64,000 nucleotides of DNA from Candidatus Uhrbacteria bacterium CG10_big_fil_rev_8_21_14_0_10_50_16 (lineage in GTDB: Bacteria > Patescibacteriota > Patescibacteriia > UBA9934 > UBA11717): assembly GCA_002774875.1 (NCBI GenBank), contig PCYM01000001.1, positions 182,153 through 246,152 of the forward strand, in the 5' to 3' direction. Below are positions 15,684-54,290 of the stretch, in pieces. The number at the start of each line of letters is the position of its first letter. Within the stretch, counting starts at the first letter, position 1. Under the pieces are notes generated by a model. It was not told the DNA's origin, searched no databases, and was given only the letters and a program-made list of their open reading frames with translations. Position numbers and translations under genes: made by a program.

Positions 15684-18239
15684 CTACAACGATGCAGGGA
15701 GTGTTGGCGCAACGGGCGGTGGCGGTGTTGGCGATCCGTATCCAGAACGTCGCGCGATGTCGCGTTCTACCTGTGCACGCGGTTTTCCGTAGGTAAGTCG
15801 TGCAAGCTGACGGATTTTTTCTGCAAGTTCTGGATTTGATTTGACGGGCGGTAAACTCGTCATAGTAAACGGCGGCAACTGCGTATTATTTTTTATCATC
15901 TTTGTGTACCACGTAAACGGATCGGAGTTAATGAGGTCGTTGGCATTAAACTCTGGTGCGAAGACTTTAATAAAGGTGTCCGTGTCCTCCGGTCCAATGC
16001 GACTCACAAACATCGATCCCACGTTTCCCAAAATCGCGTCGCGAATTTCCGTGTCCCCGCGTTGCACCACTTGGCTCATGTATTGGTGAGCCAAAATGAG
16101 ATCGAGTCGATATTTACGCGCCTCGGAAAGAATTGTTGCAATACTTGGCGTCACAAAGTTTTGAAACTCGTCGATATAAAGGTAGAAGTCTTTTCGCAGC
16201 TCCTCTGCCATGTCGGCGCGTGCCATAGCCGCCATTTGAAGTTTCGACACAATCACCAATCCCAAAAGCTGCGCGTTTACCTCTCCTGTTTTTCCTTTGG
16301 AAAGATCGATCAACAAGATTTTTTCCTTGTCCATCACCTCGCGGAAACTAAATCCGGAATGCGTTTGACCAATAATATTGCGCATCATGGCGTCCTCCAC
16401 AAAACGACCAACCTTGGAGATGAGGTAACCTAACATCTCGGACTTATGGAAGTCACTCACCTTTGCCATCTCTTGTTCCCAATACGCACGCACAACAGGA
16501 TCCTTAACCTTTGCAACCCATTGCTTCTGAAAGTCTTCGTCGCTAAACATGCGAGGGATCTCGGCAATCGTCCCCGGGTTCTCAAAATCTGACATAAGCG
16601 TAAGCATCACGTTGCGCATATGATGCTCAAACGTTGGCCCGATCATGTCTGGCGGAAACAACTTATAGAAAATGGAAATCATGTCCTGCACCGTAAGGTC
16701 GATCAACGCAGGCGTTGGTGCCTCCAACATGTTGAGTCCAACCGGCATGTCTGTGTCATATGGCGCAAACACCACCACATCCTCAATACGGTCCGGTGGA
16801 ATCGCCCCAAGAATCGTCGTAATAGCGTCTCCATGGGGATCCACGTAGCAAACACCGTGACCAGCAACAATATCGGCCACCGCCATGGCAACAATTTCTG
16901 TGGTTTTTCCGGAACCAGACTTACCGATAAAATACATGTGGCGCTGACGATCCGATGCAGAAATGCGAATCGGCGTCTTGGCACCTCTGTATTTATTGTG
17001 ACCAAGCAAAATTCCTTCCTTTGGCATATCGGCAGGCGCCGGTGCTGTGCGTGCGCCAAGCCAATCAATGTTCGACACAGGCGTGCCCGACATGGGAGGA
17101 TGCCACAAACTGGCAAGCTCTTCCGTGTTTAATACCAATCCTTCAGAATCGACGTAATTGCGATAAATAAAATCTTGCACCATGCGTGAGATATTACGTG
17201 GCACACTCTTTTCAAAACTATTCCCGAATTGGTAAATGTTGTATTGCGAAAAACTATTAAGAATATTATTGAGCGACGCTTGTGCAGATCCAACGTTTTC
17301 TGCACTCACGAGTATACGAATATTCACATCAAGCCCTGCACGTGAGGCCTTGTCTTCGATCCCTTTAAGCATCTCACGCTCGCGATCACTCATCTGACGC
17401 TGCGGCTCCTGCGACCCAGAACCATTTTTATCGCTTTTTCCAGAGATCAAACTCCCAAGTTTCATTCCGGAACCTCCTTCCTTTGGACTCTTCCCTTTTA
17501 ACGCCTGCTTGATTGTTGCCCCCTCCTGCATTAATTTGACAACGTTCAAGCCTCTTTCTCGCCAGGAACCTTTTGCAGAACGCGCGACAACCTGGATTGC
17601 TGCTCCGTCTGTTTCTGGGACTTTTGCCAATGCATTCAACAAGGCATAAAGAGGATCAGATTCAAGCTGTTTGTACGTTTTAATAGGAAACAAGTCCTCG
17701 CGCTTTAACGTGACATAGCTTCCAAGCACAACACCCGTTGGCGTAAACATATTGTAATCTTCCGCCTCCTCTACCTCTGCATCCGGAAACTGCGCATGCA
17801 ACTGCTGTACCATAAGCTCCTTCATAGCCGCAGGCGTTGCCACATAAAAATAAATAACCCCCGCTTTTACGACCATCTCAAATGCAATGTGATCTGTCCT
17901 GCCGTGCAACCATGCATTAAATCCTTTCTGATATGGTAGTCCACCGAGCGCCGAAAAAAACGTCTCTGCCACAGCAATGTCTTCCTGCACTTGTCGCAGT
18001 TCTAATGCTTCCTCACGCTCGCTCGATACAAATCGCGGGATCCGAACACGTAATACACGCATGTGCAAATTACCTCCCGCTTTACGGTGCGCGCGTAGAT
18101 GAAACCCACGGAACACAAAGAGCGCCGCTACGAGAATTCCTATCACCAGCAGCCCAATGACAACAGGAACAAGGCTCTCGATCATCGAAGGCGTGGATGA
18201 GAGTGTTGAGGCACTCGTGTTGAGGGTGATGGCAAACAT
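15684..18239 (-). CDS. TraD/VirD4/TrwB-like P-loop ATPase with N-terminal TM segment (type IV coupling-protein family)
   Basis: N-terminal TM helices, Walker A YFIGKSGSGKTT, Walker B LYIDEFQNF, 851 aa. Confidence 0.55.
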   Translation of the reverse strand: MFAITLNTSASTLSSTPSMIESLVPVVIGLLVIGILVAALFVFRGFHLRAHRKAGGNLHMRVLRVRIPRFVSSEREEALELRQVQEDIAVAETFFSALGGLPYQKGFNAWLHGRTDHIAFEMVVKAGVIYFYVATPAAMKELMVQQLHAQFPDAEVEEAEDYNMFTPTGVVLGSYVTLKREDLFPIKTYKQLESDPLYALLNALAKVPETDGAAIQVVARSAKGSWRERGLNVVKLMQEGATIKQALKGKSPKEGGSGMKLGSLISGKSDKNGSGSQEPQRQMSDREREMLKGIEDKASRAGLDVNIRILVSAENVGSAQASLNNILNSFSQYNIYQFGNSFEKSVPRNISRMVQDFIYRNYVDSEGLVLNTEELASLWHPPMSGTPVSNIDWLGARTAPAPADMPKEGILLGHNKYRGAKTPIRISASDRQRHMYFIGKSGSGKTTEIVAMAVADIVAGHGVCYVDPHGDAITTILGAIPPDRIEDVVVFAPYDTDMPVGLNMLEAPTPALIDLTVQDMISIFYKLFPPDMIGPTFEHHMRNVMLTLMSDFENPGTIAEIPRMFSDEDFQKQWVAKVKDPVVRAYWEQEMAKVSDFHKSEMLGYLISKVGRFVEDAMMRNIIGQTHSGFSFREVMDKEKILLIDLSKGKTGEVNAQLLGLVIVSKLQMAAMARADMAEELRKDFYLYIDEFQNFVTPSIATILSEARKYRLDLILAHQYMSQVVQRGDTEIRDAILGNVGSMFVSRIGPEDTDTFIKVFAPEFNANDLINSDPFTWYTKMIKNNTQLPPFTMTSLPPVKSNPELAEKIRQLARLTYGKPRAQVERDIARRSGYGSPTPPPPVAPTLPASL

Positions 18240-27835: not shown

Positions 27836-28546
27836 TCATTCGATGCGACGCTCCTTGAGCAGTACCAGCGTGAGGACATCGGCCGCCAAGGTTACCGCGA
27901 TGCATAGCCGAATCACCGGCACGTTGAGCGAGCCCGGGACGTTCTCCACAAAGAGCAGGAGTACTACACCGGTGGTTGCAGCATCTGCCAAGAACCGTGC
28001 ACGTTGCGCCCACATCGAGAGCTGCTGCGGTTCCTGCGCTTGCATCACAAACGGCACGTAGGCCACGGAGATGTAAGCGCCGATGATCACCGCGCCGGAG
28101 ATGGGATCCTGCACGTTAAACTGTTGCGCGAAACTCTGGTACAGCACCGTCGTCAAAGTGAGCACGGCGCCCGCGGTCAGAGCCTTGAGCATGCGGCTAG
28201 TGCCCTTGTCGGCAAACAGTACCCAGCACACCACCAGCACAGTATCCATGGCCAGCCATGGCCACTCGATGATGCGCAGCGGCAGCTCGACTGGATCCGT
28301 AGGCGGCCACACAAGAGTGAACGTGTACTCAAAGCTCCACATCATTGCCAGACCCAGCAACGGAATGTTGTTGACCTTGTTCTTGATGCTTCCTCGAATC
28401 AACAAGATGAAGGTTGCCGTCCACCCGGCAAGCACGCCCACCAAGCTCAGACACGCCATCAAGGCAAGCGGCCACGGCAGACTCTTGAGGACGACCAACG
28501 TCTCACGAATCGCGTCCAACGTTACAAGGGGTTCACACGTTTCCAT
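27836..28546 (-). CDS. GC-rich ORFan polytopic membrane protein (cassette G)
   Basis: about 58% GC. Minus-strand promoter TTGACA-16/17-TAAGTT, Shine-Dalgarno GGAGAGGAGAAAG, 4 nt, then ATG (METCEPLV..). About 6 TM helices; own terminator. Confidence 0.55.
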   Translation of the reverse strand: METCEPLVTLDAIRETLVVLKSLPWPLALMACLSLVGVLAGWTATFILLIRGSIKNKVNNIPLLGLAMMWSFEYTFTLVWPPTDPVELPLRIIEWPWLAMDTVLVVCWVLFADKGTSRMLKALTAGAVLTLTTVLYQSFAQQFNVQDPISGAVIIGAYISVAYVPFVMQAQEPQQLSMWAQRARFLADAATTGVVLLLFVENVPGSLNVPVIRLCIAVTLAADVLTLVLLKERRIE

Positions 28547-28625
28547 GTCTTTCTCCTCTCCAAGTACGTCAGCGTCATAACGACTCTGCGAACTTATCAG
28601 ATTTTTGAAATTTGTCAACGGAGCC

Positions 28626-28660
28626 GCCTAAACAAAAAAGAGCCCGAGGCTCTTTTAAGC
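28626..28660 (-). terminator. bidirectional terminator after K+ channel gene
   Basis: AAAAAAGAGCCcgaGGCTCTTTT. Confidence 0.7.
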
Positions 28661-28669
28661 AATGAATCG

Positions 28670-29005
28670 TTATTTTTTTCTTCGTTTTTTTGTGATACGC
28701 CCACGAATACTCATTTGATCGTGATAGCGTGCAAAAACTAGCTCGCCGACGATTCCAATTCCAAAGAGCAACAATGGAATAGAGAGGAGTGCGTAGACAC
28801 TTGTTACCAAGCGAGAGGTGTCCGATGAGGGTGCAAGATCTCCATAGCCGACTGTCGTCACCGTTGCCACGGAAAAATAAAACGCCTGGATCCATGTCCA
28901 ATTCTCAAGCCGCTGAAAAATGATCGTACCTCCTACCAAGAGCGCCGCGAGCACCACAAAGATCAGGAAGATACGTTTTACAAACTGGTTTGTAATCGTA
29001 TTCAT
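28670..29005 (-). CDS. two-TM potassium channel (pore-only, KcsA-like)
   Basis: Selectivity filter TVGYGD flanked by two TM helices; 111 aa. Host-like GC, extended -10 TGaTACAAT close to the ATG (leaderless-like). Confidence 0.7.
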   Translation of the reverse strand: MNTITNQFVKRIFLIFVVLAALLVGGTIIFQRLENWTWIQAFYFSVATVTTVGYGDLAPSSDTSRLVTSVYALLSIPLLLFGIGIVGELVFARYHDQMSIRGRITKKRRKK

Positions 29006-29247
29006 GATGACATTGTATCAATAAAGGATCCTTTTCTCTCTCCTTTTGTGTGGATAACAAACTCGCGCAAACGGAGGTTCTTCTATTGACAGGATCCGAA
29101 TTTAGAGATATGTTCATTTTATTGGAAAGGTTTATTGAGTCTGTGAGATAAGCGCTGTGTTTATCGATCATTGGTAAACAAGGCGCTTGTCTCATGCACG
29201 AGATGGCCGTGACCGTCCGAAGACGGATCGATTCTAGGGAGACGGTG

Positions 29248-30117
29248 ATGAAGAATTTCACACCCCCGCAGTTGGACATGTTCCGGGAGGCCGTCGAGTT
29301 GGAGGCTTCCGCCCTCAACCTAAGTCGAGAGCAGCTTCAAGGAGTCCTGGGCAGCAGGAGGCTCCGCGGCATGCTGCGAGACCTTCTGGTGGAGCTCGGA
29401 CAGGAGTATCCGCCAAACGCGGACGAGGCTCGCGTGCGTCTGTGGGACCATTTCCTGGGAGTCGCCGAGGCCCGCAAGGCGTTCGGAGTCCTGATCTCGG
29501 ACAGCATGATCCGGGAACTGGGCGATGTGCCGGACGACCTGTTGGGCCGTATCATGGCGAGCCACGGCCCTGGCGAGAAGGAGTATCTCCGGCTCTTCCT
29601 GGATCCGGGACTGTCCGTCGCGACCATGATTCGCTCGCAGGGAGTCCAGTACAAGGGGAGCTACGACGACTCCATGCTCTCCAGCTTCAACCAGCCGTGC
29701 TGGCGACTTGTGGATGTTCGCCACTTGTACAACCAGAGTGCCCGGCGGATCCTGACCATGGAGCTGATGAGCTTGCTCTCCAAGGGCATCAGCCAGACGG
29801 GTGAGTTGGAGCAACTCCAGCTCGGCCGTAAGGACACCGCTGGTCACACGGTCTACATGTCCTCGCGACAGAAGGTTCAGTACCACAAGCTGCAAATCAT
29901 CGGGTCGGCTCGGCCGAGCCAGGTGATGACCATCACGGTCCCCCTGATCCGTCCGTCGACTCAGAAATACCGGCACGCAACGCCGGAAGAGATCCGATCT
30001 GCCTACAGCAGAGAGATTGCGCTGGAAAGCGTTATGCTGCCTGACGGGAGGTGGTTCTTGTCCACCAGGATCGACAGAGTCGTTGTCCTGGTGAGCGAGA
30101 TCACCTGGATCAAGTAG
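29248..30117 (+). CDS. GC-rich ORFan protein (cassette A)
   Basis: about 60% GC. Promoter TTGACA(29085-29090)-17-TATGTT, Shine-Dalgarno AGGGAGA, 5 nt, then ATG (MKNFTPPQ..). Terminator 30139-30180. The antisense 284-aa ORF has an R/G/L-rich artefact composition. Confidence 0.6.
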   Translation: MKNFTPPQLDMFREAVELEASALNLSREQLQGVLGSRRLRGMLRDLLVELGQEYPPNADEARVRLWDHFLGVAEARKAFGVLISDSMIRELGDVPDDLLGRIMASHGPGEKEYLRLFLDPGLSVATMIRSQGVQYKGSYDDSMLSSFNQPCWRLVDVRHLYNQSARRILTMELMSLLSKGISQTGELEQLQLGRKDTAGHTVYMSSRQKVQYHKLQIIGSARPSQVMTITVPLIRPSTQKYRHATPEEIRSAYSREIALESVMLPDGRWFLSTRIDRVVVLVSEITWIK

Positions 30118-30138
30118 CCCAGCGCCTAGCACCCACAA

Positions 30139-30180
30139 GGGGGCGTCCGCAATCCTGCGGACGCCCCCTCTCACTTTATC
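30139..30180 (+). terminator. terminator of cassette A
   Basis: GGGGGCGTCCGCaatcctGCGGACGCCCCC + TCTCACTTTAT. Confidence 0.7.
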
Positions 30181-30238
30181 TACCCTCTATTGACGTCCTG
30201 TCTCTTTTCTTGTATCCTCTCGTTGCGTTTCAATTCAC

Positions 30239-30313
30239 GGCCCCATCGTCTAACGGTTAGGACAGCAGGTTCTCATCCTGCAAATCCGGGTTCGATTCCC
30301 GGTGGGGTCACCA
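30239..30313 (+). tRNA. tRNA-Glu (anticodon CTC), CCA encoded
   Basis: Acceptor GGCCCCA/TGGGGTC, anticodon stem GCAGG/CCTGC with loop TTCTCAT, T-arm CCGGG-TTCGATT-CCCGG, then ACCA. Followed by terminator CCGAGctcgtCTCGG+T7 (30317-30350). Confidence 0.8.
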
Positions 30314-30372
30314 ACAAAAAATCCGAGCTCGTCTCGGGTTTTTTGTTGGTACCTCCCGCGGAAATTGGACAA

Positions 30373-30413
30373 GGGGCACTGGGAAGGGAGAAATTCTCCC
30401 TTCCCAGTGCCCC
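30373..30413. other. 18-bp perfect hairpin (GGGGCACTGGGAAGGGAG aaatt CTCCCTTCCCAGTGCCCC)
   Basis: Perfect inverted repeat 60 nt downstream of tRNA-Glu, no U-tract; candidate recombination/att-type structure at the island border. Confidence 0.6.
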
Positions 30414-30454
30414 TATTATGAGGTTTAAAATGCGATCGACACCACGCATACACT

Positions 30455-30503
30455 CATATCTTATTCTAAATTAACAACACGGTGGGGTCCGGAGACCCCA
30501 CCG
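30455..30503 (-). terminator. terminator of cassette F
   Basis: CGGTGGGGTCtccgGACCCCACCG then UGUUGUUAAUUU on minus strand. Confidence 0.5.
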
Positions 30504-30522
30504 CTATCAGGAGTGGGTGCGT

Positions 30523-31008
30523 TCAGCCGCCGCCGCACCGACACGAGCTACGCTGACCGTGATCGCTGTTGCAGCAACCCTGCGCGTGACCCCAGTCGCG
30601 TTCACCATCCTCGGGCCAGATCTCGGTGTCGAGATCGGCGTACAGGCCGCACAGGTACTCACGGGTGCGCGCGTAGGTTCCCGGCTCCATCGATCCCGGC
30701 AGATCGCACGGGTCGTGGTGAAGGTAATCCACGCCCATGGACTGACAGAAGTCGGTGTACGGCTTGCTGTAGAGCAGGAACGTGTGCCACGCCTCATCGG
30801 CTAGATGTGACGGAGCAAGACGACGACCTTCCGGAACTGCGCAAGCGCGCAGGAACTGGATGGCGCCATCAAAGGCTCGACGGGCCACATCCTCGTCGAT
30901 ACTCATATTCTTGACCATGCGAGCTATCACGCGGTCACGAATGGATGAGTCGAGGTTGTAGTCGGGGAGTCGAATCTGAGACTCGACCAAACAAAGGGCG
31001 GCAGACAT
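30523..31008 (-). CDS. GC-rich ORFan protein (cassette F)
   Basis: about 62% GC. Minus-strand promoter TTGACA-17-TAGAGT, Shine-Dalgarno GAGGTG, 4 nt, then ATG (MSAALCLVES..). Conserved-looking core EAWHTFLLYSKPYTDFC..YLHHDP, Cys-rich tail. Confidence 0.5.
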   Translation of the reverse strand: MSAALCLVESQIRLPDYNLDSSIRDRVIARMVKNMSIDEDVARRAFDGAIQFLRACAVPEGRRLAPSHLADEAWHTFLLYSKPYTDFCQSMGVDYLHHDPCDLPGSMEPGTYARTREYLCGLYADLDTEIWPEDGERDWGHAQGCCNSDHGQRSSCRCGGG

Positions 31009-31079
31009 AAGCACCTCAATCAATCGTCTCGAACGGCATGTCCGAGACGCTTACTCTACGTGCCTCACAGCCATGTTGT

Positions 31080-31125
31080 CAACATATCACTGGTCGGGTC
31101 TATAAAAATAGTGGCGCCCGCCCAG
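31080..31125 (-). terminator. terminator of cassette E
   Basis: GCCCGCCCGGGatcctccTGGGCGGGCGC + CACUAUUUUUAUAG on minus strand. Confidence 0.6.
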
Positions 31126-31148
31126 GAGGATCCCGGGCGGGCGTACGT

Positions 31149-31739
31149 TCACTTGATGTTCGGACAGACCTTGGGCAAATCGGAGAACTGCCAAGAGACT
31201 CCGAGATCCTGCAGATTCCGCAGTTCTTGTTCCATGCGGTTGCGAGTGTTGTTGAGACCGATTGCCATGGCCTGTATGAACCAGGTGCACACGTCGCTGA
31301 TCTCCTGCCAGGTCAACAGCTCGTACTTGGCGAGAACCGCAGACAGACGGCCGTCCTGCCCCTTGTCGAGTCTGCCACTGATGCCATCCACGGCAATCGT
31401 GTTCTGCATCACGTAGACGAGCAGACGGCCGGTCGAATCACTCCCCAGGCGACCCTGCCCGCCCGCGATCATGAGGTCCGCCACCTCCCGATACGAGCTC
31501 CACGCACCCTGGGAGGCTTGGAACATCTCGGCGATCTGCTGTAGTCCGCAGGTCAGCACCTTTGCGTTCTCCACGCGTTCTTCCCGACTCTCCCGTGCCT
31601 GAACCTTGGCCTCGTCTCGAACAGACTGATCCGACACGGACCCGGTGGCCCACGCATTCGTGCAGGACCCCGGTGCCAACAAGAGCACCAACACCACCAA
31701 CATGCAAAACCCCACGAACTTCAATTGCTTCTCCATCAT
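31149..31739 (-). CDS. GC-rich ORFan secreted protein (cassette E)
   Basis: Minus-strand promoter TTGACA-17-TATAAA (31775-31808), Shine-Dalgarno GGGAGAG then ATGATG. Signal peptide MMEKQLKFVGFCMLVVLVLLLAPGSC; 196 aa. Confidence 0.55.
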   Translation of the reverse strand: MMEKQLKFVGFCMLVVLVLLLAPGSCTNAWATGSVSDQSVRDEAKVQARESREERVENAKVLTCGLQQIAEMFQASQGAWSSYREVADLMIAGGQGRLGSDSTGRLLVYVMQNTIAVDGISGRLDKGQDGRLSAVLAKYELLTWQEISDVCTWFIQAMAIGLNNTRNRMEQELRNLQDLGVSWQFSDLPKVCPNIK

Positions 31740-33806: not shown

Positions 33807-35561
33807 CTAGGCAGCTCGTTGTGACTCTTCGGGTGCGTCCGCTTCTTTATTCGTCGTTGATTTTATCTCCGCCAAGAGTTGCGCAAGGTCTTCTTGTTCT
33901 TGAGCCGTTAACGGTTGTTCGTCTGGCTCGCGCAACGCACGGGATTCTTCCACGAGATGATCCATCTCTGCACGTTCTTCTCCTTCGATCTCCTTGGACA
34001 CCTCCAGCCCCGTTTCCTCCCCTAACTGACGCAACGCGTGCTGCGCCAAAACGCACACAAACTCTGCATCCTCGCGTGTATCCATGGTACGCAGGTTCTT
34101 GTTGAGCGTCTCTATGCGTGCGGAGAAATCAACCATCCTCTCTCCCTCATACCGTCGCCACAGCTCTTGTGCACGTAAGACGAGATTTGTTGCCTCTTGT
34201 TTTGTCTGTTGTTCGATCTCCTCCCGCCAGGATTCTTCCTCTTCTCGGCTCACATAGGCGCATCCCCCTTCTGCGAATAAATCCTCCAAACAATCCGAAA
34301 GACCTTCGGCAAACATCGTGAGATCCATTCCTCGCCCATCTGCATACGATTTCCATGCATTCACGCGCTCATTCTTCAGCGCATTTGCATATGGCAACAC
34401 CACATCCCACGCTAACTCGGCTAGCTTCAGCTCCGCAGGACTCAAAGGCTCACCCGTTTGCTGCGTGATAAATTCTTGAATTGATTCTCGATTCTCTGCA
34501 GAGAGATGAAACGTACCATTCATGATTTCGATAATCTTGTTCTGAATATCCAATTCTACCTTCTTTGGATCTCGGATAATCAATTTAAACCCTCTCGCAA
34601 GACACATGGCCAAGGAGTACATGTCTTCCAACGACTTCTCCATCGGAACGTCGATGTATTGTTCCGGAGCTGCAAAGAAAGGCGTTCCTGAATAACGTCC
34701 CGTAGGCCTTGGAACACCTGTCCGTTCTGAAATGCCAAAATCCACCGCACGTGCCCTGTGTGGTAATGCTGTATCCACGCGAATGTTTGCAGGTTTTATA
34801 TCGTGATGCGCCCAGCCAAGCTTACGCATATCGATCAACTGCCGCGCAACCGATTCAAACGCTAACGCCCCCATCGCACGCGCGTCATGAATCTCCATGA
34901 CGGACTCACCCGCCTCAATTGCCTCCCAAATGGTTTTCATGTCCTGCCCTGGAACATACCCCATAAGGAGAGCAAGTTTTCTCTCCCCACGCTTATCCTC
35001 CACACGTCGCACATCTTGGAGCGCGCCCATTTCGAGTGTTGCAGCAATTTCGTGCTCCATACGATCACGCGCCGAGCCAATTTTATCCGCATTTGTATCG
35101 AATCCCTCGTCAGGATGGTACTTTGCCACCTCTTCCGCATAAAAACGCGCGTTGCCCGCAGAGGGTTCATACATCGTTTTGATTACACCCAGTCGCCCCT
35201 GACTCCCCATCATGGCACGTTCCCAGCCTTTTTCTGGCATTTTTCGAACACGAAACACCTCGCCAAATACACCCGCACCCTCCCTCTTCTCAATCTTCCA
35301 TGGGCCAAACGTATCTGCGAGCGCCTGCTGCGCCTCCCTTGTAAACATACTCACATTGTCCACGTTTAAAATAGGAATTGCCTCTAACGCAACACCTCCG
35401 CCCTCCGCAGGATGTTTTGCACGATCAATCTCGTCTTCTTCTAACGCCGCCTCCTCCATTGGACGGGTAACATCAATGGACGATTCTAACTCTGCTCGCC
35501 GTTGTTGGCGCCGCGCATTGCGTTCCTCATCCCATCCAACATAATGTCCTCCAAAGTCCAT
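33807..35561 (-). CDS. Hanks-type Ser/Thr protein kinase
   Basis: HHDIKPANIRV, DFGIS, GTPFFAAPEQ; C-terminal acidic coiled region. ATG 1 nt after murF stop. Confidence 0.8.
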   Translation of the reverse strand: MDFGGHYVGWDEERNARRQQRRAELESSIDVTRPMEEAALEEDEIDRAKHPAEGGGVALEAIPILNVDNVSMFTREAQQALADTFGPWKIEKREGAGVFGEVFRVRKMPEKGWERAMMGSQGRLGVIKTMYEPSAGNARFYAEEVAKYHPDEGFDTNADKIGSARDRMEHEIAATLEMGALQDVRRVEDKRGERKLALLMGYVPGQDMKTIWEAIEAGESVMEIHDARAMGALAFESVARQLIDMRKLGWAHHDIKPANIRVDTALPHRARAVDFGISERTGVPRPTGRYSGTPFFAAPEQYIDVPMEKSLEDMYSLAMCLARGFKLIIRDPKKVELDIQNKIIEIMNGTFHLSAENRESIQEFITQQTGEPLSPAELKLAELAWDVVLPYANALKNERVNAWKSYADGRGMDLTMFAEGLSDCLEDLFAEGGCAYVSREEEESWREEIEQQTKQEATNLVLRAQELWRRYEGERMVDFSARIETLNKNLRTMDTREDAEFVCVLAQHALRQLGEETGLEVSKEIEGEERAEMDHLVEESRALREPDEQPLTAQEQEDLAQLLAEIKSTTNKEADAPEESQRAA

Positions 35562-35562
35562 A

Positions 35563-36864
35563 TTAATTTGCAAGCCATTTTCCGTACTGACGCACAAGAA
35601 GCTCTGGTGCTCTCAACGGTTCTGCCATGAGTTCTTTGACAATCTTCTCTGTACGAATACCCTGCGATCCTTTAACAAGAATCGCGTCTCCACGTTTCAT
35701 CCGCTCCTGTAAAAATCGCCCCGCGTCCACCGAATTTGCATACGTGTAGACCTGCGTCTGTGCCATTCCCTGCTCCAACGCCGCACGTGCGGCATCGCGT
35801 GCATGTTCTCCCACCGTCACAAACAAATCAATCGGCAATGTTGCGACATGTTTACCAACATCTTTGTGCGCCTGTTCCGAGTAGCGTCCCAACTCCAACA
35901 TATCTCCCACAACCGCAATACGTTGTGCACCCGCATTAATAGGCACACCACACAACACTTCCAGCGCCGCATGCACCGCCTCCGGTGACGCATTATAGGT
36001 ATCATCAATTAACAACGTATGTTTAATACCTGGCAACAACCGCAATCGACCCGGCATAGGGATGTAGGACTGGACATTTTTTGCGATCGTTGAAGGAGAC
36101 AGTCCAAGCTGCAGAGCTACGGCTGCGCCTGCCAATACAGATCGTACGTGCGCGTCTCCAATCACGTTTTTCATTGTAACGGGCACGGAGTCTCGTCCCA
36201 TTCTGAGCGTAAACATTAACTGAGACATTGTGTCACCAACAAGCGTCTCACCATTTTGACGCATATCAACGCGAATATCCTCCGCCGTAATATCCGCCAT
36301 ACCTAATCCATACGTCACCACAGACCCCTTGGCGAGATGACTCATGCCTGACACATTTGCATCGTCTGCATTTAAAATCGCGATTCCATCCGCTGCCAAT
36401 CCGCGAATTAATGCGCTTTTTTCCTCTTTTACATCCTCGATCGTTCCAAAATATTCTGCGTGCGCCACACCAACAGCTGTTACAACTGCTATATAGGGAC
36501 GCGCCATCTGACAAAGGTATTGAATGTCTCCTCGTGCGTCCGCTCCAAATTCCAGCACAAGAATTTCTGGATAATCATGCGCGCCACCCTGAGAGCATCG
36601 CCATCCGCGCCACAACACACCCACCCAACCAAAGAATGAGCGGCCAGGTGACGTCTCGTTGAGGATAGTCAACGGCACACCAATCTCATTATTATAGTTT
36701 TCTACTGTCGCGCGCACGCGTCGTGAAGAACCAATGGCAGCAACAATCGCATGGCGTGTGGACGTCTTACCGACCGACCCGGTAATTGCAATAACTTTTG
36801 GTTTATACGCACGTAACGTTTTTTTGGCAAGGCGCGCAAGAACGCGCTGGAGGAGTTGTTTCAT
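35563..36864 (-). CDS. murF: UDP-N-acetylmuramoyl-tripeptide--D-alanyl-D-alanine ligase
   Basis: ITGSVGKTST P-loop, VVGDMLELG motif, Mur ligase fold. Confidence 0.8.
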   Translation of the reverse strand: MKQLLQRVLARLAKKTLRAYKPKVIAITGSVGKTSTRHAIVAAIGSSRRVRATVENYNNEIGVPLTILNETSPGRSFFGWVGVLWRGWRCSQGGAHDYPEILVLEFGADARGDIQYLCQMARPYIAVVTAVGVAHAEYFGTIEDVKEEKSALIRGLAADGIAILNADDANVSGMSHLAKGSVVTYGLGMADITAEDIRVDMRQNGETLVGDTMSQLMFTLRMGRDSVPVTMKNVIGDAHVRSVLAGAAVALQLGLSPSTIAKNVQSYIPMPGRLRLLPGIKHTLLIDDTYNASPEAVHAALEVLCGVPINAGAQRIAVVGDMLELGRYSEQAHKDVGKHVATLPIDLFVTVGEHARDAARAALEQGMAQTQVYTYANSVDAGRFLQERMKRGDAILVKGSQGIRTEKIVKELMAEPLRAPELLVRQYGKWLAN

Positions 36865-36889: not shown

Positions 36890-38707
36890 TTATCGTTCGG
36901 GGGAAATTTGCTTATAGTGTAGCAGAAAATCCGCGATCTCCCCAAACAAGGGAGCGGCGGTTCCGGCAGCCCATTCTGACGCACGTGGGTGATCTATTCG
37001 AATCAACATCACAAACCGTGGATCACGCGCTGGACCGTAGCCCACAAACGTTGCAATCGTATTGCCCGTTTGATATCCCGTACCACTATCGTTGGCCACC
37101 TGCGCCGTTCCTGTCTTTCCGGCAATGTAATATCCATCGACCTTTGCAAGCCCTGCATGTCCATTCTCAACTGTGGATACGAGCATCGCGGTAGTAAGTT
37201 GGGCGGTTTTTGGGGAGACAACTTGGCGAAGTTGCACAGGATCCGTCTTCTCAACGGTACCATCTTGATGTCGAACTTCCTTTACAAGGTAGGGTTGCAT
37301 CATCGCTCCCCCGTTGGCAAGTGCCGTATAAGCGCGTGCCATTTGCAGCGGTGTCACCGTCAATCCCTGACCGTAGGAACTCGTCGCAGAATAAATCTCA
37401 TGCCCTTTATCCACAGCACTAATCTCCCCTTGTACCTCACTGTTAAGCGAGATCCCAATAGTCTCGCCAAATCCAAAATCATGCACATAGCGCGCCAGAA
37501 CATCACCTCCCATTTTACGCATCACAAAAATCATCCCCGTATTGAGCGACTTCTCCAGCACTTCCGTCATGGTTTGGATACCGTTGGCCTTATGGTCTGA
37601 GTTGCGGATAGTATAGCGATCAATCTTCTCTTCTCCCGTGTCGTTATACGTCATGCTCGGTGTAACAGCGCCCGCATCCAATCCCGCCGCCATCACGAGC
37701 GGTTTAAACACGGAACCTGGTTCATATGCAGAAAAGATTGCCTGATTATTATAGACAGAAATTGATTCTACCTCGTTGTATACGTTGGGGTTATAGGTAG
37801 GCACACCGCACATAGCCCAAACAGCACCCGTTTTTGAATCCAAAATAATCAAAGATCCACTATCGGCCTCAAAGCGATCTACGTTCTCTTGCAATTTTGT
37901 ACAGGCCACATGCTGAATGGTGCGATCAAGTGTCAATACAAGATCCGCACCATTTTGTGCATCGTGAAGATTACGTGCGCCGATCCCAATCCAATTGCCT
38001 TTTGCATCCAGCTCTGAGAATAAAAATCCCGGCTGCCCTGCGAGCGTGTCATTAAAGTAACCCTCCAATCCATATTTTCCACTTACGGTTCCATTGGGGT
38101 CCTCACTCACAAAGCCCGTCACATGTGCCGTCGTTTCCTCCTCAGGATAAAAGCGAAATTGCTCACGCAATAAATGAATCCCCGTGAGATTTGCGCGCGT
38201 AATCTCGTCTCCCAATTCCTCGCTTACTCGACGTTTAATCGGCTCGTAGGGGTCGTCGGCTTTTTGTAATTGCGCAAGGACGTGATCGTATTCCGAAGGT
38301 AACGTAATGGTTTCTCCTTGATCATTCACAGATTCCTCTCCCTCACGAGACAATCCTAAAATGTCAGACAATACATCTGCGGTACGCACAGGGTCGTCGA
38401 CTTTACGAGGTTCTGCCCACACAAGATTTAAAAATTGATTCGTGGCAATCGCCACCTCTGTGCCATCTCGATCTTCTACAAGAATGGACCCGCGCTGTGG
38501 ATACAGGTCTTTATAGAGCTCCCGTTGCCCGCTCGCCAAGGCCTCATACACCCCGTGCTTGAGGATCTGTAAATACCCCAAACGGACAATAAGCATGGCG
38601 GCAACCAGAAAAAACGCGGCCTGCAAAAGACGCACACGAGAAGGCGTGGAGACGGATGCAGAGCGATTCCCGTAATACGCCCGTGTTTTTGGGGATTTTT
38701 GTGTCAT
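36890..38707 (-). CDS. penicillin-binding protein 2 / FtsI-type transpeptidase
   Basis: N-terminal TM, SVFKP (SxxK), SxN and KTGTA motifs. Confidence 0.85.
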   Translation of the reverse strand: MTQKSPKTRAYYGNRSASVSTPSRVRLLQAAFFLVAAMLIVRLGYLQILKHGVYEALASGQRELYKDLYPQRGSILVEDRDGTEVAIATNQFLNLVWAEPRKVDDPVRTADVLSDILGLSREGEESVNDQGETITLPSEYDHVLAQLQKADDPYEPIKRRVSEELGDEITRANLTGIHLLREQFRFYPEEETTAHVTGFVSEDPNGTVSGKYGLEGYFNDTLAGQPGFLFSELDAKGNWIGIGARNLHDAQNGADLVLTLDRTIQHVACTKLQENVDRFEADSGSLIILDSKTGAVWAMCGVPTYNPNVYNEVESISVYNNQAIFSAYEPGSVFKPLVMAAGLDAGAVTPSMTYNDTGEEKIDRYTIRNSDHKANGIQTMTEVLEKSLNTGMIFVMRKMGGDVLARYVHDFGFGETIGISLNSEVQGEISAVDKGHEIYSATSSYGQGLTVTPLQMARAYTALANGGAMMQPYLVKEVRHQDGTVEKTDPVQLRQVVSPKTAQLTTAMLVSTVENGHAGLAKVDGYYIAGKTGTAQVANDSGTGYQTGNTIATFVGYGPARDPRFVMLIRIDHPRASEWAAGTAAPLFGEIADFLLHYKQISPER

Positions 38708-38864
38708 CTAGCACACAGTATACCACCTTGACAAAATCGCCATTTTCTGATAGGTTAGACCGTCACATTCCGTCTGAGGTTTGTGCAAAATTCACCAGAA
38801 ACATGCCTGTTTGAGGCTGTGCAACACATTTGATCTGCGCCTACGTGCGCGAGAGGAGGATGCG

Positions 38865-41018
38865 ATGAGCGTGAACGTGAAGAAGATTGGTTGGATGGGC
38901 TTCCACTCGGGTCGTCCGCATTTGGACGACTTGTTGGCAGCCGTGATTGGATGCGTGCTTGGCCTCTTTGAGGTCGAGTTCATGGACCCGAAGAGTTCCG
39001 TAAACCTTATCCTGGACGCGAGCGGCATCTCCAATGCCCTGGCGCGCCAGATGAGCGAGACGGGGCGGGACGCCGACGGCGTGCAGTTGTACGCCGCGTG
39101 GATCGGCACGACCCCCAACGGTGGGACCTCCCCCGTCTCCGAGGGCGACCAGTGGTGGTCGCCCTACGACGAGCACGGGAGTGGCAACCCCGCGGACTCG
39201 GCCACGGAGCTCATGCTCCACCTGGCCGGGGACGACAAGGCCATTGGCCGGCGGCTCCAGACCCTCTTCCGGGGATGGGGCATCCGCGCCTCGGAGGCGC
39301 AGGTCGCGGAGTCGGTGGAAAAGCTCCACCACATGGTGGCCTACACCACCATGAAGGACAACTTTCCCGTCGCCATGCGCGGCGGAATCAGCTGGCTCCT
39401 CAAGCAGCTGAACCGGGTGTGCTGCTTCCAGATCGGAGAAGGTGGGAAGATCCGGGAGGAGTCCTACTCCTCCCAGGAGGTCCTCCGTGACCTCCGTTGG
39501 ATCTACCGACTGCTCGTCACCTACATGACGAGCAACCTGCAGATTGAGACCTCCGATCTGGCCGCCGTGGACCAGGAGATGGTTCACTGGTACCTCCAGC
39601 GTGAGGACGTGAGCCCGGCATGGAAGCCGGACACCGCTCCACGCACGATGGCGGAGCTGACGGCCATGATCCGGACGGAGGTGCGCCGCAAGGCGCTGGA
39701 GGCCAAGAAGGCCAACCGGGCATTCAGCCCGCCCTCCACGCTGCTCCGCCGTTTGCGGAGCCTCACCGCTCTGGTGAGTGACTTGCGCAACCCCAGCAAC
39801 TGGGCATCGGTGGAGGCATGGATGCTCCACCAATGGATGGGGGGCAAGAAGGTCCACCTCGGGATGAACGTGGGTAACACCACGACCATCCAGGAGGTGA
39901 TCGCCAACCTCGCCGCCCGCGCGGAAGCTCTCAAGGAGAGCGCGCGGGCGGACACACCCCGCCAGCAGGAGAAGCTGGAGGGCTGGATCCGGCAGCTGCA
40001 GGAGTTGCAGCTGCGCGTGGAGGATGAAGAGCAGACCCGCCAGCTGATGGCGGGAGATGAGCGGATGGATGAGCGGACCGCCGCCTCCCCCTACGGGGTG
40101 GTGGCGACCACGGTCCTGCTCCTGCGGCGTTCCCGCCGCACGGACGGCCTGGCCTTCCCCGAGGGTCAGGCCGTGGCCGAGGAGTACCTCTTCATGGCGC
40201 TGGACGCGCTGTGGGGAAAGATGCTCCTGGCGGAGGCCGCCTCCCGTCAGATCCAGGAGGCACAGGCGGACCCCACCTGCACGCCGGCCATCGCGGTCGA
40301 CTGGCAGGTGAAAGGTGTGGAGCAGCCGGGACTGCTCCACTCCGATGGCATCAACCCCGAGACCCCGGCGGAGGCCCGCCGGATCTTGGGCAAAGGCCAG
40401 GTGGGTGGTCGCCAGGTGAAGCGCTTCCCGCTGATCCTGGTCACCTGCGAGAAGCTGCCGGACGGTACGCCGTTCGGAAGCGCCTACCTGGGCGCCGACC
40501 AGCGGTACTTCGGTACCGACTGGACGGACGGATTCTTCCGTCACATCACGTCCTGGCTCCGAGTCATGGAACTCCGGCGCCAGGGCAATCCGTTGCCGGA
40601 GGACCTCGATACCCTCGAGGCGCCCGACAAGGTGCAGGACCACGTGTGGTTCCTACACCTCAACGGAGACGGAAAGGCCGTCCAGGTGATGGCCAAGAGC
40701 CTCCACCGCCGGGATTCGCCCGGTACGGAGCTGGACGCCAAGCAGGAGATCCTGGCCGCCCAACTGGTGGTCTACACCGTCTTCTGCGCCTGGCGGTCTC
40801 TCGGAGTGTTCGGCAGCCAGCAGGGCCGCCTCAGCCTCCGGGCACGGGACAGCGCCCTGCGGGCGCTCCGCCACCGCCTCGCCGGCGCCGAGGACATGGC
40901 CGCCGAGCTGCAGCTCATCTTGAGCGAGCTCCGCAGCCAGATCGTCATCCACCAGACCGCCCTCCTCCCCCTGCGGGAGTCGAAGGCGCCGGGTGAAGAG
41001 CTCGCCCCCACGAGCTAA
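38865..41018 (+). CDS. large GC-rich ORFan protein, 718 aa (cassette B)
   Basis: about 65% GC against about 48% in flanking genes. Promoter TTGACA(38729-38734)-17-TAGGTT, Shine-Dalgarno GAGGAGGA, 4 nt, then ATG (MSVNVKKIGW..). Balanced amino-acid composition, whereas the other five frames give R/G/L/H-rich artefacts. Terminator 41050-41092. Confidence 0.65.
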   Translation: MSVNVKKIGWMGFHSGRPHLDDLLAAVIGCVLGLFEVEFMDPKSSVNLILDASGISNALARQMSETGRDADGVQLYAAWIGTTPNGGTSPVSEGDQWWSPYDEHGSGNPADSATELMLHLAGDDKAIGRRLQTLFRGWGIRASEAQVAESVEKLHHMVAYTTMKDNFPVAMRGGISWLLKQLNRVCCFQIGEGGKIREESYSSQEVLRDLRWIYRLLVTYMTSNLQIETSDLAAVDQEMVHWYLQREDVSPAWKPDTAPRTMAELTAMIRTEVRRKALEAKKANRAFSPPSTLLRRLRSLTALVSDLRNPSNWASVEAWMLHQWMGGKKVHLGMNVGNTTTIQEVIANLAARAEALKESARADTPRQQEKLEGWIRQLQELQLRVEDEEQTRQLMAGDERMDERTAASPYGVVATTVLLLRRSRRTDGLAFPEGQAVAEEYLFMALDALWGKMLLAEAASRQIQEAQADPTCTPAIAVDWQVKGVEQPGLLHSDGINPETPAEARRILGKGQVGGRQVKRFPLILVTCEKLPDGTPFGSAYLGADQRYFGTDWTDGFFRHITSWLRVMELRRQGNPLPEDLDTLEAPDKVQDHVWFLHLNGDGKAVQVMAKSLHRRDSPGTELDAKQEILAAQLVVYTVFCAWRSLGVFGSQQGRLSLRARDSALRALRHRLAGAEDMAAELQLILSELRSQIVIHQTALLPLRESKAPGEELAPTS

Positions 41019-41049
41019 CCCCCTCCTGCACATGGAGGGACGCGAAAAA

Positions 41050-41092
41050 AGAGGGGCTCCGCAATCTGCGTGAGCCCCTTTTCCTTTTATCT
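41050..41092 (+). terminator. terminator of cassette B
   Basis: AGAGGGGCTCcgcaatctgcgtGAGCCCCTTTTCCTTTTAT. Confidence 0.7.
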
Positions 41093-41098
41093 CTTTTT

Positions 41099-41455
41099 TT
41101 ATTGCGCCGCAGCAATCGCTGCAACAAGTTTTGCTTTAAGACCCGTAAGTGCCGTGACGGCCGTTGCATAATCTTCATCACGGATTGCACGCGATCCCAC
41201 ATATCCTTCTTCCTCCCACACACTCAATTGTGTTGCATCCACACCCGCGGTACTTGCATCCACGAGCAACTGTCCCACGTCGAGCATAAGGTTAAGCGCT
41301 TGGGTCTTTGCGGCACTATCCACGGGAGCCGCTGTCTTAGGGATCTCCTGCGCAGGCACTGCTAATGGTTCAACAGGAATTGAATCGGAGGGTTTGGAAG
41401 CACATCCAGCTCCCACGAGTGAGAAGGCCATGAGCGAGAGAATGAGTTTTTTCAT
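41099..41455 (-). CDS. hypothetical lipoprotein
   Basis: Signal peptide with lipobox-like LVGAGC; 118 aa. Confidence 0.5.
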   Translation of the reverse strand: MKKLILSLMAFSLVGAGCASKPSDSIPVEPLAVPAQEIPKTAAPVDSAAKTQALNLMLDVGQLLVDASTAGVDATQLSVWEEEGYVGSRAIRDEDYATAVTALTGLKAKLVAAIAAAQ

Positions 41456-41709: not shown

Positions 41710-42011
41710 AAAGACAGTATATCAAATTTCCGCAACATCTTCTTTTTGCAGCGCATTATGGGCATCAATTACATCACTATTAATCGAGGTAAGGGGGTGC
41801 GTTTCTGTACAGACGGGTAATTCACGCACAACACGAATCCTCCCCGTGAATCAAATCAATGCCTTGCAGGCCGTAAACGGTTTCCTGACGTGTATATTCC
41901 AGCATTGCGGTTTGCGTTGCCTTTGTCAACTTCATCTGCAACGCTTCTTCACCAGTGACCCATACTGCCTCCCGATGTTCTGCCGACAAAAGAATCGTCA
42001 AATGCTCATTC

Positions 42012-53768: not shown

Positions 53769-54290
53769 ATGGAAGATGGTAAGGATTTCTATTTTGAGAG
53801 CGTGATCATTCACGTGGGAGACAAGACGGTGGAGCTGGAGCATGTGCACAGCACCAACAGGCGGTTGCAACGGCTCATGGAGCAGGGTTACGACATAGCC
53901 GCATCGCTCGAGTTCACGGTGGACCCGAATAATCAGGTGGCGACCCAGCTGGGTCTACTGCAGTACCTGCCTGACCCGCGGCAGACGGAGGTCGCGGAAC
54001 CCGAGGTGGGCACTCAACCCGTCGACCTCGCCAACACCGGATTCACGCAAGAACAAGTGAACCTCCTCAACACCCCGGTTAGTGAGCTCCCCCAGATCTT
54101 CGTCGTCCAAGAAATTGTGAGCCTGGCTAGTCGCCATCTGACGCGTCTTCACCACGTAGTGGTGGGCGGTGGACCGAGGTCCCTGAGCCTTTCTGAGGCG
54201 ACAGAGACCAGATATCAGAACTTGCTCAACGCGCACGGCCTGAAGATCTATTCGCCACTTTCGAGCATTGAGGACCTCCTCCTCGTCTAG
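53769..54290 (+). CDS. GC-rich ORFan protein, 173 aa (cassette D)
   Basis: about 57% GC. Promoter TTGACA(53712-53717)-17-TACAAC, Shine-Dalgarno GGAGAA, 6 nt, then ATG (MEDGKDFYFE..). Terminator GAGCCCGcaccactggtgtCGGGCTC+AAACATTTTTC (54306-54342). Confidence 0.55.
   Translation: MEDGKDFYFESVIIHVGDKTVELEHVHSTNRRLQRLMEQGYDIAASLEFTVDPNNQVATQLGLLQYLPDPRQTEVAEPEVGTQPVDLANTGFTQEQVNLLNTPVSELPQIFVVQEIVSLASRHLTRLHHVVVGGGPRSLSLSEATETRYQNLLNAHGLKIYSPLSSIEDLLLV

What the first reader, a model, noticed from the sequence alone, without database searches (positions are those of the whole stretch)
38729..41092. 65% GC, 718-aa ORFan gene as an autonomous plus-strand cassette wedged between PBP2 and nrdJ
A 2.3-kb compositional spike (about 65% GC) interrupts a run of minus-strand cell-wall and nucleotide genes. 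It carries its own TTGACA-17-TAGGTT promoter, Shine-Dalgarno GAGGAGGA, ORF and strong terminator. The protein has a normal, non-repetitive composition but no motif I can recognise (no P-loop, no catalytic signature), so it is not a GC-frame artefact. The five alternative frames are R/G/L/H-rich. A large protein of unknown function that is clearly foreign to its host makes it a candidate effector or toxin.
Basis: partly seen in the sequence, partly recalled or inferred. Interest (0 to 1): 0.75.

Follow-up and report, generated by a model that had tools for sequence, protein, structure and literature searches.

The report
GC-rich fast-evolving Uhrbacteria phosphoesterase-like gene
The GC-rich gene is real, but it is not a recent foreign insert: it sits at the same spot in a whole clade of Candidatus Uhrbacteria, probably encodes a very divergent DHH/MYG1-type metal phosphoesterase, and has stayed far more GC-rich than its host genomes for reasons not yet explained.

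Summary
Window 38865-41018 (+) is a 717-aa ORF with 66.7% GC and GC3 0.88, against 49.7% and about 0.5 for the host. It has its own conserved promoter, Shine-Dalgarno sequence and terminator.

The interpretation "clearly foreign, candidate toxin" is not supported. The gene is found only in Candidatus Uhrbacteria. In every locus with enough flank it lies divergent from PBP2 and convergent with DUF5665/nrdJ. All ten loci measured are 9-20 GC points above their flanks (GC3 0.74-0.92), whatever the host GC (39-58%). Four-fold sites have turned over but remain G/C, so the GC-rich state is stationary and not un-ameliorated DNA.

The protein evolves about five times faster than its neighbours. One cassette-sized tract (about 38717-41140) was recently exchanged with another Uhrbacteria species: dS is 0.16 in the ORF against more than 1.6 in the flanks.

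The parts
38717..38733 (.). Conserved divergent-promoter core AGTATACCACCTTGACA. On the + strand it ends in the -35 TTGACA (38728-38733). On the - strand it reads TGGTATACT, an extended -10-like element only 9 nt from the PBP2 start codon.
   Evidence: Nearly identical in nine loci; sequence read.
38748..38756 (+). Extended -10 element TGaTAGGTT of the ORF promoter, with a 17-nt spacer after TTGACA.
   Evidence: TAnnTT is conserved in 9 of 9 loci and the TGn in 8 of 9. Not flagged by the consensus scan.
38763..38864 (+). Inferred 5' UTR of about 100 nt with host-like GC (0.51), ending in the Shine-Dalgarno GAGGAGGA (38853-38860).
   Evidence: No consensus RNA structure was found and there is no Rfam match. 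The transcription start is inferred, not shown.
38865..41018 (+). CDS of 717 aa (identical to P0133 / PIR47998.1, 'hypothetical protein', Candidatus Uhrbacteria). GC is 66.7% and GC3 0.884; the first 120 nt are less GC-rich (0.54). Predicted architecture: N-terminal alpha/beta domain (about 1-200) with the motifs H14-x4-H19-x-D21-D22, D102-E103-H104 and K164-D165-N166; an all-helical insertion (about 200-470) with D402-E403-R404; and a C-terminal alpha/beta domain (about 480-700) with N497-P498, R566, E569, D592 and W595.
41021..41039 (+). Small hairpin directly after the stop codon (CCCUCC-UGCACAU-GGAGGG). An analogous hairpin is present in most homologues.
41049..41100 (.). Strong hairpin (41049-41082) with an A-tract before it and a U-tract after it. 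It lies between the convergent ORF and the 118-aa lipoprotein gene and is probably a bidirectional intrinsic terminator.
   Evidence: MFE -36.4 kcal/mol, z -5.3. Equivalent hairpins are present in the homologous loci.
38717..41140 (.). Tract of about 94% nucleotide identity to Candidatus Uhrbacteria UBA11717 (L006), set within flanks of about 75% identity. This is the recently exchanged allele; it includes the non-coding promoter and terminator.
   Evidence: Four-fold site difference is 0.13 in the ORF against 0.58-0.66 in the flanks, and dS is 0.16 against more than 1.6.

Best explanation
The gene is a clade-specific but positionally fixed, single-gene transcription unit of a sub-clade of Candidatus Uhrbacteria (CPR/Patescibacteria).

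Inferred function: a cytoplasmic, two-lobed, metal-dependent phosphoesterase of the DHH/DHHA1 superfamily. It is closest in motif pattern to MYG1/UPF0160 and in fold to NrnA/PggH/pAp-phosphatase-type enzymes, with an insertion of about 270 residues that is all helices. It most likely hydrolyses nucleotides or short RNAs.

Shown: its high GC is not the residue of a recent import. It is a stationary property of the coding sequence in every lineage; synonymous sites keep changing but stay G or C.

Shown: the protein evolves about five times faster than its neighbours. Whole alleles, with promoter and terminator, are occasionally replaced between species by recombination. The window's allele and that of UBA11717 are an example.

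Inferred and unresolved: the GC-rich state is maintained either by selection acting on the coding sequence or mRNA, or by GC-biased gene conversion linked to the recurrent recombination.
For: Synteny. PBP2(-) | ORF(+) | [small ORF] DUF5665 ... nrdJ(-) is seen in loci L001-L005, L007, L010 and L011; L006 aligns colinearly with the window from PBP2 to nrdJ; L009 and L018 show the part of the arrangement that their short contigs hold. A more distant relative, L019 (PBP 52% identical), has a different gene at this position.

GC excess. The ten loci measured have 59-68% GC and GC3 0.74-0.92, which is 9-20 points above their flanks of 39-58% GC.

Stationarity. Between the window and L001, 57% of four-fold sites in the ORF differ and 54% of those differences are G<->C. 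In PBP2 only 16% of the differences are G<->C.

Confinement to the CDS. The 100 nt upstream have 0.41-0.59 GC, and the first 120 nt of the CDS are lower than the rest of the CDS in 9 of 10 loci.

No sign of translational selection. DnaK in the same window has GC3 0.505.

Fast evolution. Between L001 and L002, PBP2 and nrdJ are 94% identical but the ORF only 71%; dN is 0.219 against 0.04.

Allele exchange. Identity between the window and L006 steps from 0.75 to 0.94 across 38717-41140. dS is 0.16 in the ORF and above 1.6 in the flanks. ORF distances disagree with flank distances: L001 and L011 have flanks 76-87% identical but ORFs 27% identical.

Motifs. H14, H19, D21, D165, D402, E403 and D592 are invariant, and D102, E103 and H104 nearly so. 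hhalign places H14/H19/D21/D22 on the HxGTFHCDE motif of MYG1 with a score of 24.9; 120 column shuffles gave a mean of 14.9 and a maximum of 20.2. MYG1 is a DHH-motif 3'-5' RNA exonuclease (PMC6582341).
Against: Fold and family:
- Foldseek finds nothing significant (E >= 0.13).
- No Pfam DHH, DHHA1 or MYG1 model matches any of the 12 members, even at E <= 10.
- Full-length hhalign against MYG1 gives probability 1.2% and P 0.045.
- The central motif is DEH, not DHH.
- I could not inspect the model coordinates to check that the invariant residues cluster in one cleft.

Evolution:
- dN/dS is 0.24 and 0.33 in the two unsaturated pairs, so fast evolution may be relaxed constraint rather than diversifying selection.
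- Only one clear exchange event was observed.
- A housekeeping nanoRNase would not be expected to evolve this fast.

GC maintenance:
- Gene conversion bias should also enrich the UTR inside the exchanged tract, and it does not.
- No mechanism for selection on GC3 is demonstrated.
Confidence: 0.55

Rival explanations
1. Recent horizontal acquisition of a foreign cassette from a high-GC donor, possibly a toxin or effector.
For: The compositional step is sharp and the codon usage is unlike the host's. The unit carries its own promoter and terminator.
Against: The locus and orientation are the same in all relatives over deep divergence. Synonymous sites have turned over yet remain GC-rich. No homologue exists outside Uhrbacteria. 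Phage, plasmid and IMG/VR collections give no hit. There are no flanking repeats or mobility genes. There is no signal peptide and no partner gene.
Confidence: 0.03
2. Recurrent replacement from an unsampled GC-rich reservoir. Alleles would circulate in a GC-rich pool, such as an unknown plasmid or phage, a GC-rich Uhrbacteria lineage, or the bacterial host of these episymbionts. They would be repeatedly re-introduced at this locus by recombination through the conserved promoter and terminator flanks, so composition never equilibrates with the resident genome.
For: The exchange tract is cassette-sized and its ends lie in the conserved flanks. The ORF phylogeny disagrees with that of the flanks. 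ORF GC is nearly independent of host GC. The same genome has other GC3-rich ORFans in a variable island next to a tRNA gene.
Against: No copy was found in any non-syntenic, viral or plasmid context. All known carriers have at most 58% GC. Alleles of sister genomes (L001 and L002) have diverged in place, with near-saturated synonymous change.
Confidence: 0.15
3. The protein is not a DHH-type phosphoesterase. It would be a novel enzyme or scaffold whose resemblance to DHH/DHHA1 is a generic alpha/beta similarity. The rest of the evolutionary picture is unchanged.
Confidence: 0.25
4. The high GC3 is maintained to keep an overlapping antisense gene open (596-codon frame at 38841-40643, minus strand).
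For: A long open antisense frame is present in the window and in most homologues.
Against: Synonymous-codon shuffles give equally long antisense frames (mean 555 against 596 observed). The frame is broken at different places in different homologues, giving 432-728 codons. Its product is low-complexity and rich in R, G, L and H.
Confidence: 0.02

Closest known systems
MYG1 / UPF0160 (Pfam PF03690), a DHH-motif 3'-5' RNA exonuclease
   Same: The order of elements in the N-terminal domain matches: beta-strand, H-x4-H-x-D-[DE] plus helix, beta-strand, G-x-x-GG loop, D-[HE]-H, then x-D-N. hhalign aligns motif I. MYG1 is assigned to the DHH phosphoesterases (PMC6582341).
   Different: No HMM-level match. 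The protein is about twice as long, with a helical insertion of about 270 residues. The motif is DEH instead of DHH. The family is restricted to one CPR sub-clade and evolves fast.
Stand-alone DHH/DHHA1 phosphodiesterases and phosphatases (NrnA-like: PggH 7d62, TM1595 5o1u, pAp phosphatase 8a8k, NrN 9lq9)
Replacement-type hypervariable loci exchanged by homologous recombination through conserved flanks
   Same: The chromosomal position is fixed and the alleles are highly divergent. The allele tree disagrees with the flank tree. One recent exchange is bounded by the conserved flanks. This comparison rests on my general knowledge of such loci.
   Different: This is a single enzyme-like cytoplasmic gene, not a surface-polysaccharide or receptor cluster. 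It is GC-richer, not AT-richer, than the core genome.
GC-biased gene conversion in recombining bacterial genes (Lassalle et al. 2015, PMC4450053)
   Same: It links recombination with raised GC3, more strongly at third positions. This locus shows both recombination and raised GC3.
   Different: The excess here is about +35-40 GC3 points in a single gene and is confined to the CDS. From my recollection of that paper's Figure 1, which was not re-read here, this is much larger than the average recombinant versus non-recombinant differences it reports.

Membership tests
DHH phosphoesterase superfamily | Match to the family HMMs (Pfam DHH PF01368, DHHA1 PF02272 or MYG1_exonuc PF03690) | tested here: not met
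   None of 12 family members matches any of these models, even at E <= 10. The PDB profile search is also empty.
DHH phosphoesterase superfamily | Two-lobed DHH + DHHA1 alpha/beta fold | tested here: inconclusive
DHH phosphoesterase superfamily | Metal-binding motif I (DxD, or HxDE in MYG1) after the first strand, and motif III (DHH) | tested here: inconclusive
   H14, H19 and D21 are invariant and position 22 is D or E. D102-E103-H104 is nearly invariant, but reads DEH, not DHH. hhalign aligns motif I to MYG1 with P 0.01, and 0 of 120 shuffles score as high.
DHH phosphoesterase superfamily | Mn2+/Co2+-dependent phosphoester hydrolysis | not testable with these tools
   Needs a biochemical assay.
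MYG1 / UPF0160 | Profile-level homology over the whole domain | tested here: inconclusive
   hhalign of A3 against A4 gives probability 1.2% and P 0.045 over 115 columns. A single MYG1 sequence gives no relevant alignment.
Recently acquired genomic island or foreign cassette | Atypical composition | tested here: met
Recently acquired genomic island or foreign cassette | Patchy presence: absent from close relatives, or present in unrelated genomes or mobile elements | tested here: not met
   The gene is present at the same site in all sub-clade relatives examined. It is absent only in a distant relative (L019). It is found nowhere else.
Recently acquired genomic island or foreign cassette | Mobility hallmarks: integrase or transposase, flanking direct or inverted repeats, adjacency to a tRNA gene | tested here: not met
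   The neighbours are housekeeping genes. Only short, chance-level repeats were found. The nearest tRNA gene is about 8.5 kb away.
Secreted toxin or effector | Secretion signal, and/or an adjacent cognate immunity or chaperone gene | tested here: not met
   The N-terminus carries the invariant H14/H19/D21 motif within a domain modelled at high confidence. The gene is monocistronic, lying between a divergent and a convergent neighbour. No dedicated signal-peptide predictor was available.

The most novel reading that the evidence does not exclude
A bacterial gene whose synonymous sites have been held at about 75-90% G/C throughout the history of a CPR clade, in host genomes of 39-58% GC. The cause would be a gene-specific force not yet described at this strength in bacteria.

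One candidate is an extreme, locus-restricted recombination and GC-biased-conversion hotspot. Another is selection for GC-rich codons or mRNA tied to what the gene does. Examples are protection of its own message from an AU-directed nuclease activity, or expression in or exchange through a GC-rich partner organism of these episymbionts.

This would be coupled to rapid protein evolution and between-species allele replacement.
Probability: 0.2. Interest if true: 0.8.

Novelty: new variant of a known kind. Interest (0 to 1): 0.6.

Why it matters
Composition outliers are routinely read as recent horizontal transfer. Here a +17-point GC (+35-40-point GC3) outlier turns out to be a positionally conserved, clade-wide gene at compositional equilibrium. 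It is therefore a clean counter-example, and a natural test case for what can hold local base composition away from the genomic mean in bacteria: selection on synonymous sites, or biased gene conversion.

It also defines a new, uncharacterised protein family, with nine 50%-identity clusters among 1.84 billion representatives. The family has a probable DHH/MYG1-like catalytic core, in organisms whose nucleotide and RNA turnover enzymes are poorly known.

The combination of fast protein evolution and cassette exchange suggests a role in some conflict or niche-specific process in CPR bacteria.

Tried and rejected
- Sequence-family searches of the ORF (Pfam, NCBIfam, PADLOC, PHROGs, PDB by phmmer) found nothing. 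Repeating them with the family profile and with all members also found nothing.
- The word-indexed homologue search with the 12-sequence profile returned only the four close clusters again.
- The first AlphaFold run on 4 sequences was unusable (pLDDT 56.7). The second run on 11 sequences was good.
- The afdb50 fold library was not available.
- Foldseek against PDB and BFVD gave no significant hit.
- An Rfam scan of the cassette gave only a chance-level hit (E 0.99).
- A consensus fold of six 5' UTRs gave no structure.
- The overlapping antisense gene was rejected by synonymous shuffles.
- Translational selection for high expression was rejected because DnaK has GC3 0.505.
- No mobile-element boundaries were found.
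- Phage, plasmid, IMG/VR and JGI pattern scans for homologues were empty. The A3 alignment was too divergent for pattern scanning.
- Assembly chimera was rejected. The same strain is recovered at 99.98-100% identity in four other assemblies, and the synteny is seen in many independent samples.
Full report
**1. What is there**

The window has about 50% GC. 1-kb windows at 39001-41000 reach 66-69%. The spike coincides with one ORF on the + strand, ATG 38865 to TAA 41018, 717 aa. Its GC1/2/3 are 0.667/0.450/0.884. The rest of the window has 49.7% GC, and most other ORFs have GC3 near 0.5.

Codon usage is radically different from the adjacent genes. TTC is used at 0.88 against 0.21, AAG at 0.92 against 0.44, and TAC at 1.00 against 0.44.

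A Shine-Dalgarno GAGGAGGA lies 4 nt before the ATG. TTGACA-17-TAGGTT lies at 38728-38756. Downstream, a strong hairpin (41049-41082) with a U-tract folds at -36.4 kcal/mol for 41019-41100, z = -5.3. The simple promoter scanner does not flag the promoter. Comparison of nine homologous loci shows the block TATACCACCTTGACA-N17-TGnTAnnTT almost unchanged, even where the proteins share only 20-30% identity. That is much better evidence of function than a consensus score.

**2. Host and distribution**

The protein is identical to PIR47998.1 / UniRef A0A2H0RNB4, a 'hypothetical protein' of Candidatus Uhrbacteria. One genome hit in GTDB is Candidatus Uhrbacteria UBA11717, at 93% identity.

The word-indexed search of 5.8 billion clusters found four clusters. 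An exhaustive profile search of 1.84 billion representatives found nine (E from 0 to 1e-17, lengths 586-734). Every named member is from Uhrbacteria or Patescibacteria. Phage, plasmid, IMG/VR and JGI pattern scans found nothing.

**3. It is not a recent insert**

Every homologue with enough context has the same neighbourhood. It lies divergent from PBP2 (followed by a Mur ligase, a Ser/Thr kinase and a Na+/H+ exchanger). It is convergent with a small lipoprotein gene, DUF5665, CobA/NUDIX in most relatives, and class II ribonucleotide reductase. A PBP2-anchored scan found one further syntenic copy (L018). A more distant relative (L019, PBP2 52% identical) has a different, co-directional gene at the site. 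The family therefore arose at, or entered, the base of a sub-clade and has stayed put.

There are no flanking repeats or mobility genes. Four other assemblies recover the same strain at 99.98-100% identity, which excludes a chimera.

**4. The compositional anomaly is conserved and stationary**

The ten loci measured have 59-68% GC and GC3 0.74-0.92. That is 9-20 points above their own flanks, which range from 39 to 58% GC.

Between the window and L001, the flanking genes are saturated at synonymous sites. In the ORF, 57% of four-fold sites in conserved codons also differ, but 54% of those differences are G<->C. In PBP2 only 16% are G<->C. Synonymous sites have therefore been replaced many times while remaining G or C. 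This is an equilibrium, not un-ameliorated foreign DNA.

The excess is confined to the coding region. The 100 nt upstream have host-like GC, and the first 120 nt of the CDS are lower than the rest of the CDS in 9 of 10 loci.

Highly expressed DnaK in the same window has GC3 0.505, so ordinary translational selection is not the cause.

The 596-codon antisense frame is what the codon usage gives by itself (shuffle mean 555) and is broken at different places in different homologues.

**5. Fast protein evolution and allele exchange**

Between L001 and L002, PBP2 and nrdJ are 94% identical but the ORF only 71%. dN is 0.219 against about 0.04, and dN/dS is about 0.33. At a PBP2 identity of about 75%, the ORF is 27-50% identical.

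The window and UBA11717 show the opposite. PBP2 is 85% identical and the ORF 93%. dS is 0.16 in the ORF and above 1.6, or not calculable, in all five neighbours compared in both calls. Four-fold differences are 0.13 against 0.58-0.66.

Nucleotide identity steps from about 0.75 to about 0.94 at about 38717, directly after the PBP2 start codon. It steps back at about 41140. The tract includes the non-coding promoter, UTR and terminator.

Because L001 and L002 show near-saturated synonymous change in the ORF, a general synonymous constraint cannot explain this. The cassette was recently exchanged between the two species.

ORF distances also disagree with flank distances elsewhere. L001 and L011 have flanks 76-87% identical and ORFs 27% identical, whereas the window and L001 have flanks 75-83% identical and ORFs 50% identical. 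This is compatible with further exchanges or with old allelic lineages.

**6. What the protein is**

An AlphaFold2 model built on 11 family members is confident (pLDDT 86.4, pTM 0.86). It has an N-terminal alpha/beta domain, an all-helical region of about 270 residues, and a C-terminal alpha/beta domain.

The family's invariant residues are mostly His, Asp and Glu: H14, H19, D21, E65, D165, D402, E403 and D592, with D102-E103-H104 nearly invariant. Their order recalled the MYG1/UPF0160 pattern (HxGxFHxDE ... DVGG ... DHH ... DN). I tested that lead with real MYG1 sequences (PDB 24ah, Pfam PF03690):
- Full-length hhalign gives P 0.045 and probability 1.2%.
- The N-terminal domain alone gives a score of 24.9 (P 0.01) and aligns H14/H19/D21/D22 with the MYG1 motif.
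- 120 column-shuffled controls gave a mean of 14.9 and a maximum of 20.2.

MYG1 is a DHH-motif 3'-5' RNA exonuclease (PMC6582341).

Taken together, the most likely reading is a very divergent DHH-superfamily metal phosphoesterase acting on nucleotides or short RNA. The HMM criterion for membership is not met, and the fold and motif criteria are only suggestive. I therefore state this as 'works like', at roughly 55-60% confidence.

**7. What maintains the GC**

This is unresolved. Two explanations remain:
- GC-biased gene conversion linked to recurrent recombination. It is known to raise GC3 in recombining bacterial genes (PMC4450053). Against it, the excess is confined to the CDS, and as I recall that paper's figures it is much larger than the average differences reported there.
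- Selection on the coding sequence or mRNA. It fits the CDS-limited pattern and the 5' dip, but has no demonstrated mechanism.

A third possibility is repeated re-import from an unsampled GC-rich pool. It fits the cassette exchange and the other GC-rich ORFans in this genome, but no such pool was found.

**8. Verdict**

The interpretation as recent foreign DNA or a toxin is not supported. What is there is a new, Uhrbacteria-restricted protein family with a probable DHH/MYG1-like catalytic core. It sits in a positionally fixed, self-contained transcription unit that evolves fast, is swapped between species, and is held at a GC content far above that of its hosts. The last property is the surprising part.

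Noticed in passing
window 27836-31739: A second GC-rich stretch (57-60% GC) holds four ORFs with GC3 0.70-0.80. Three have no Pfam hit here, and the fourth has only a Pyr4-like terpene cyclase hit. A tRNA-Glu(CTC) gene lies in the middle at 30239-30313. The stretch is not shared with UBA11717 apart from the tRNA. In relatives this position between HrcA and the Na+/H+ exchanger holds TrmB and other genes. It looks like a variable island next to a tRNA gene, and is a better candidate for acquired DNA than the flagged gene.
   Followed up: partly
window 53769-54290 (+): Another ORF with no Pfam hit (173 aa) and raised GC3 (0.73), on the + strand.
   Followed up: no
window 38707-38725 (- strand): The conserved block next to the ORF's -35 reads TGGTATACT on the minus strand. 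This is an extended -10-like element ending only 9 nt before the PBP2 start codon. It suggests back-to-back divergent promoters and a leaderless or nearly leaderless PBP2 mRNA.
   Followed up: no
window 41021-41039, and the equivalent position in L001, L002, L004, L007, L011: A short hairpin directly after the stop codon, ahead of the main terminator, recurs in most homologous loci with different sequences. Its function is unknown.
   Followed up: no
window 41710-42011: Relatives carry CobA/CobO (cob(I)alamin adenosyltransferase) and NUDIX genes between DUF5665 and the B12-dependent nrdJ. In this window CobA is absent and only a weak NUDIX remnant remains (tblastn E 0.008 at 41894-42010). The retrieved UBA11717 locus has neither.
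   Followed up: partly
window 39732 and codon 521 of the ORF; same-strain contigs L005, L015, L017: About 40 kb of same-strain sequence from other assemblies contains only three SNPs. Two of them are non-synonymous changes in this ORF (P290T, F521L). The numbers are too small for significance (P about 0.07).
   Followed up: partly
window 33807-35597 (-): The Ser/Thr protein kinase next to the Mur ligase is also fast-evolving. It is 46% identical to its UBA11717 orthologue, whereas the adjacent genes are 79-86% identical.
   Followed up: no
window 15684-18239 (-): An 851-aa protein has type IV secretion coupling-protein domains (TrwB / TraG-D).
   Followed up: no
window 41099-41455 (-): The 118-aa gene convergent with the ORF encodes a probable lipoprotein (MKKLILSLMAFSLVGAGC lipobox). 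Its last 40 nt or so lie inside the exchanged tract.
   Followed up: no
whole window: GC skew of the + strand is negative throughout and nearly all genes are on the - strand. The flagged gene is therefore probably transcribed head-on to replication, in all relatives. This is an inference from skew only.
   Followed up: no
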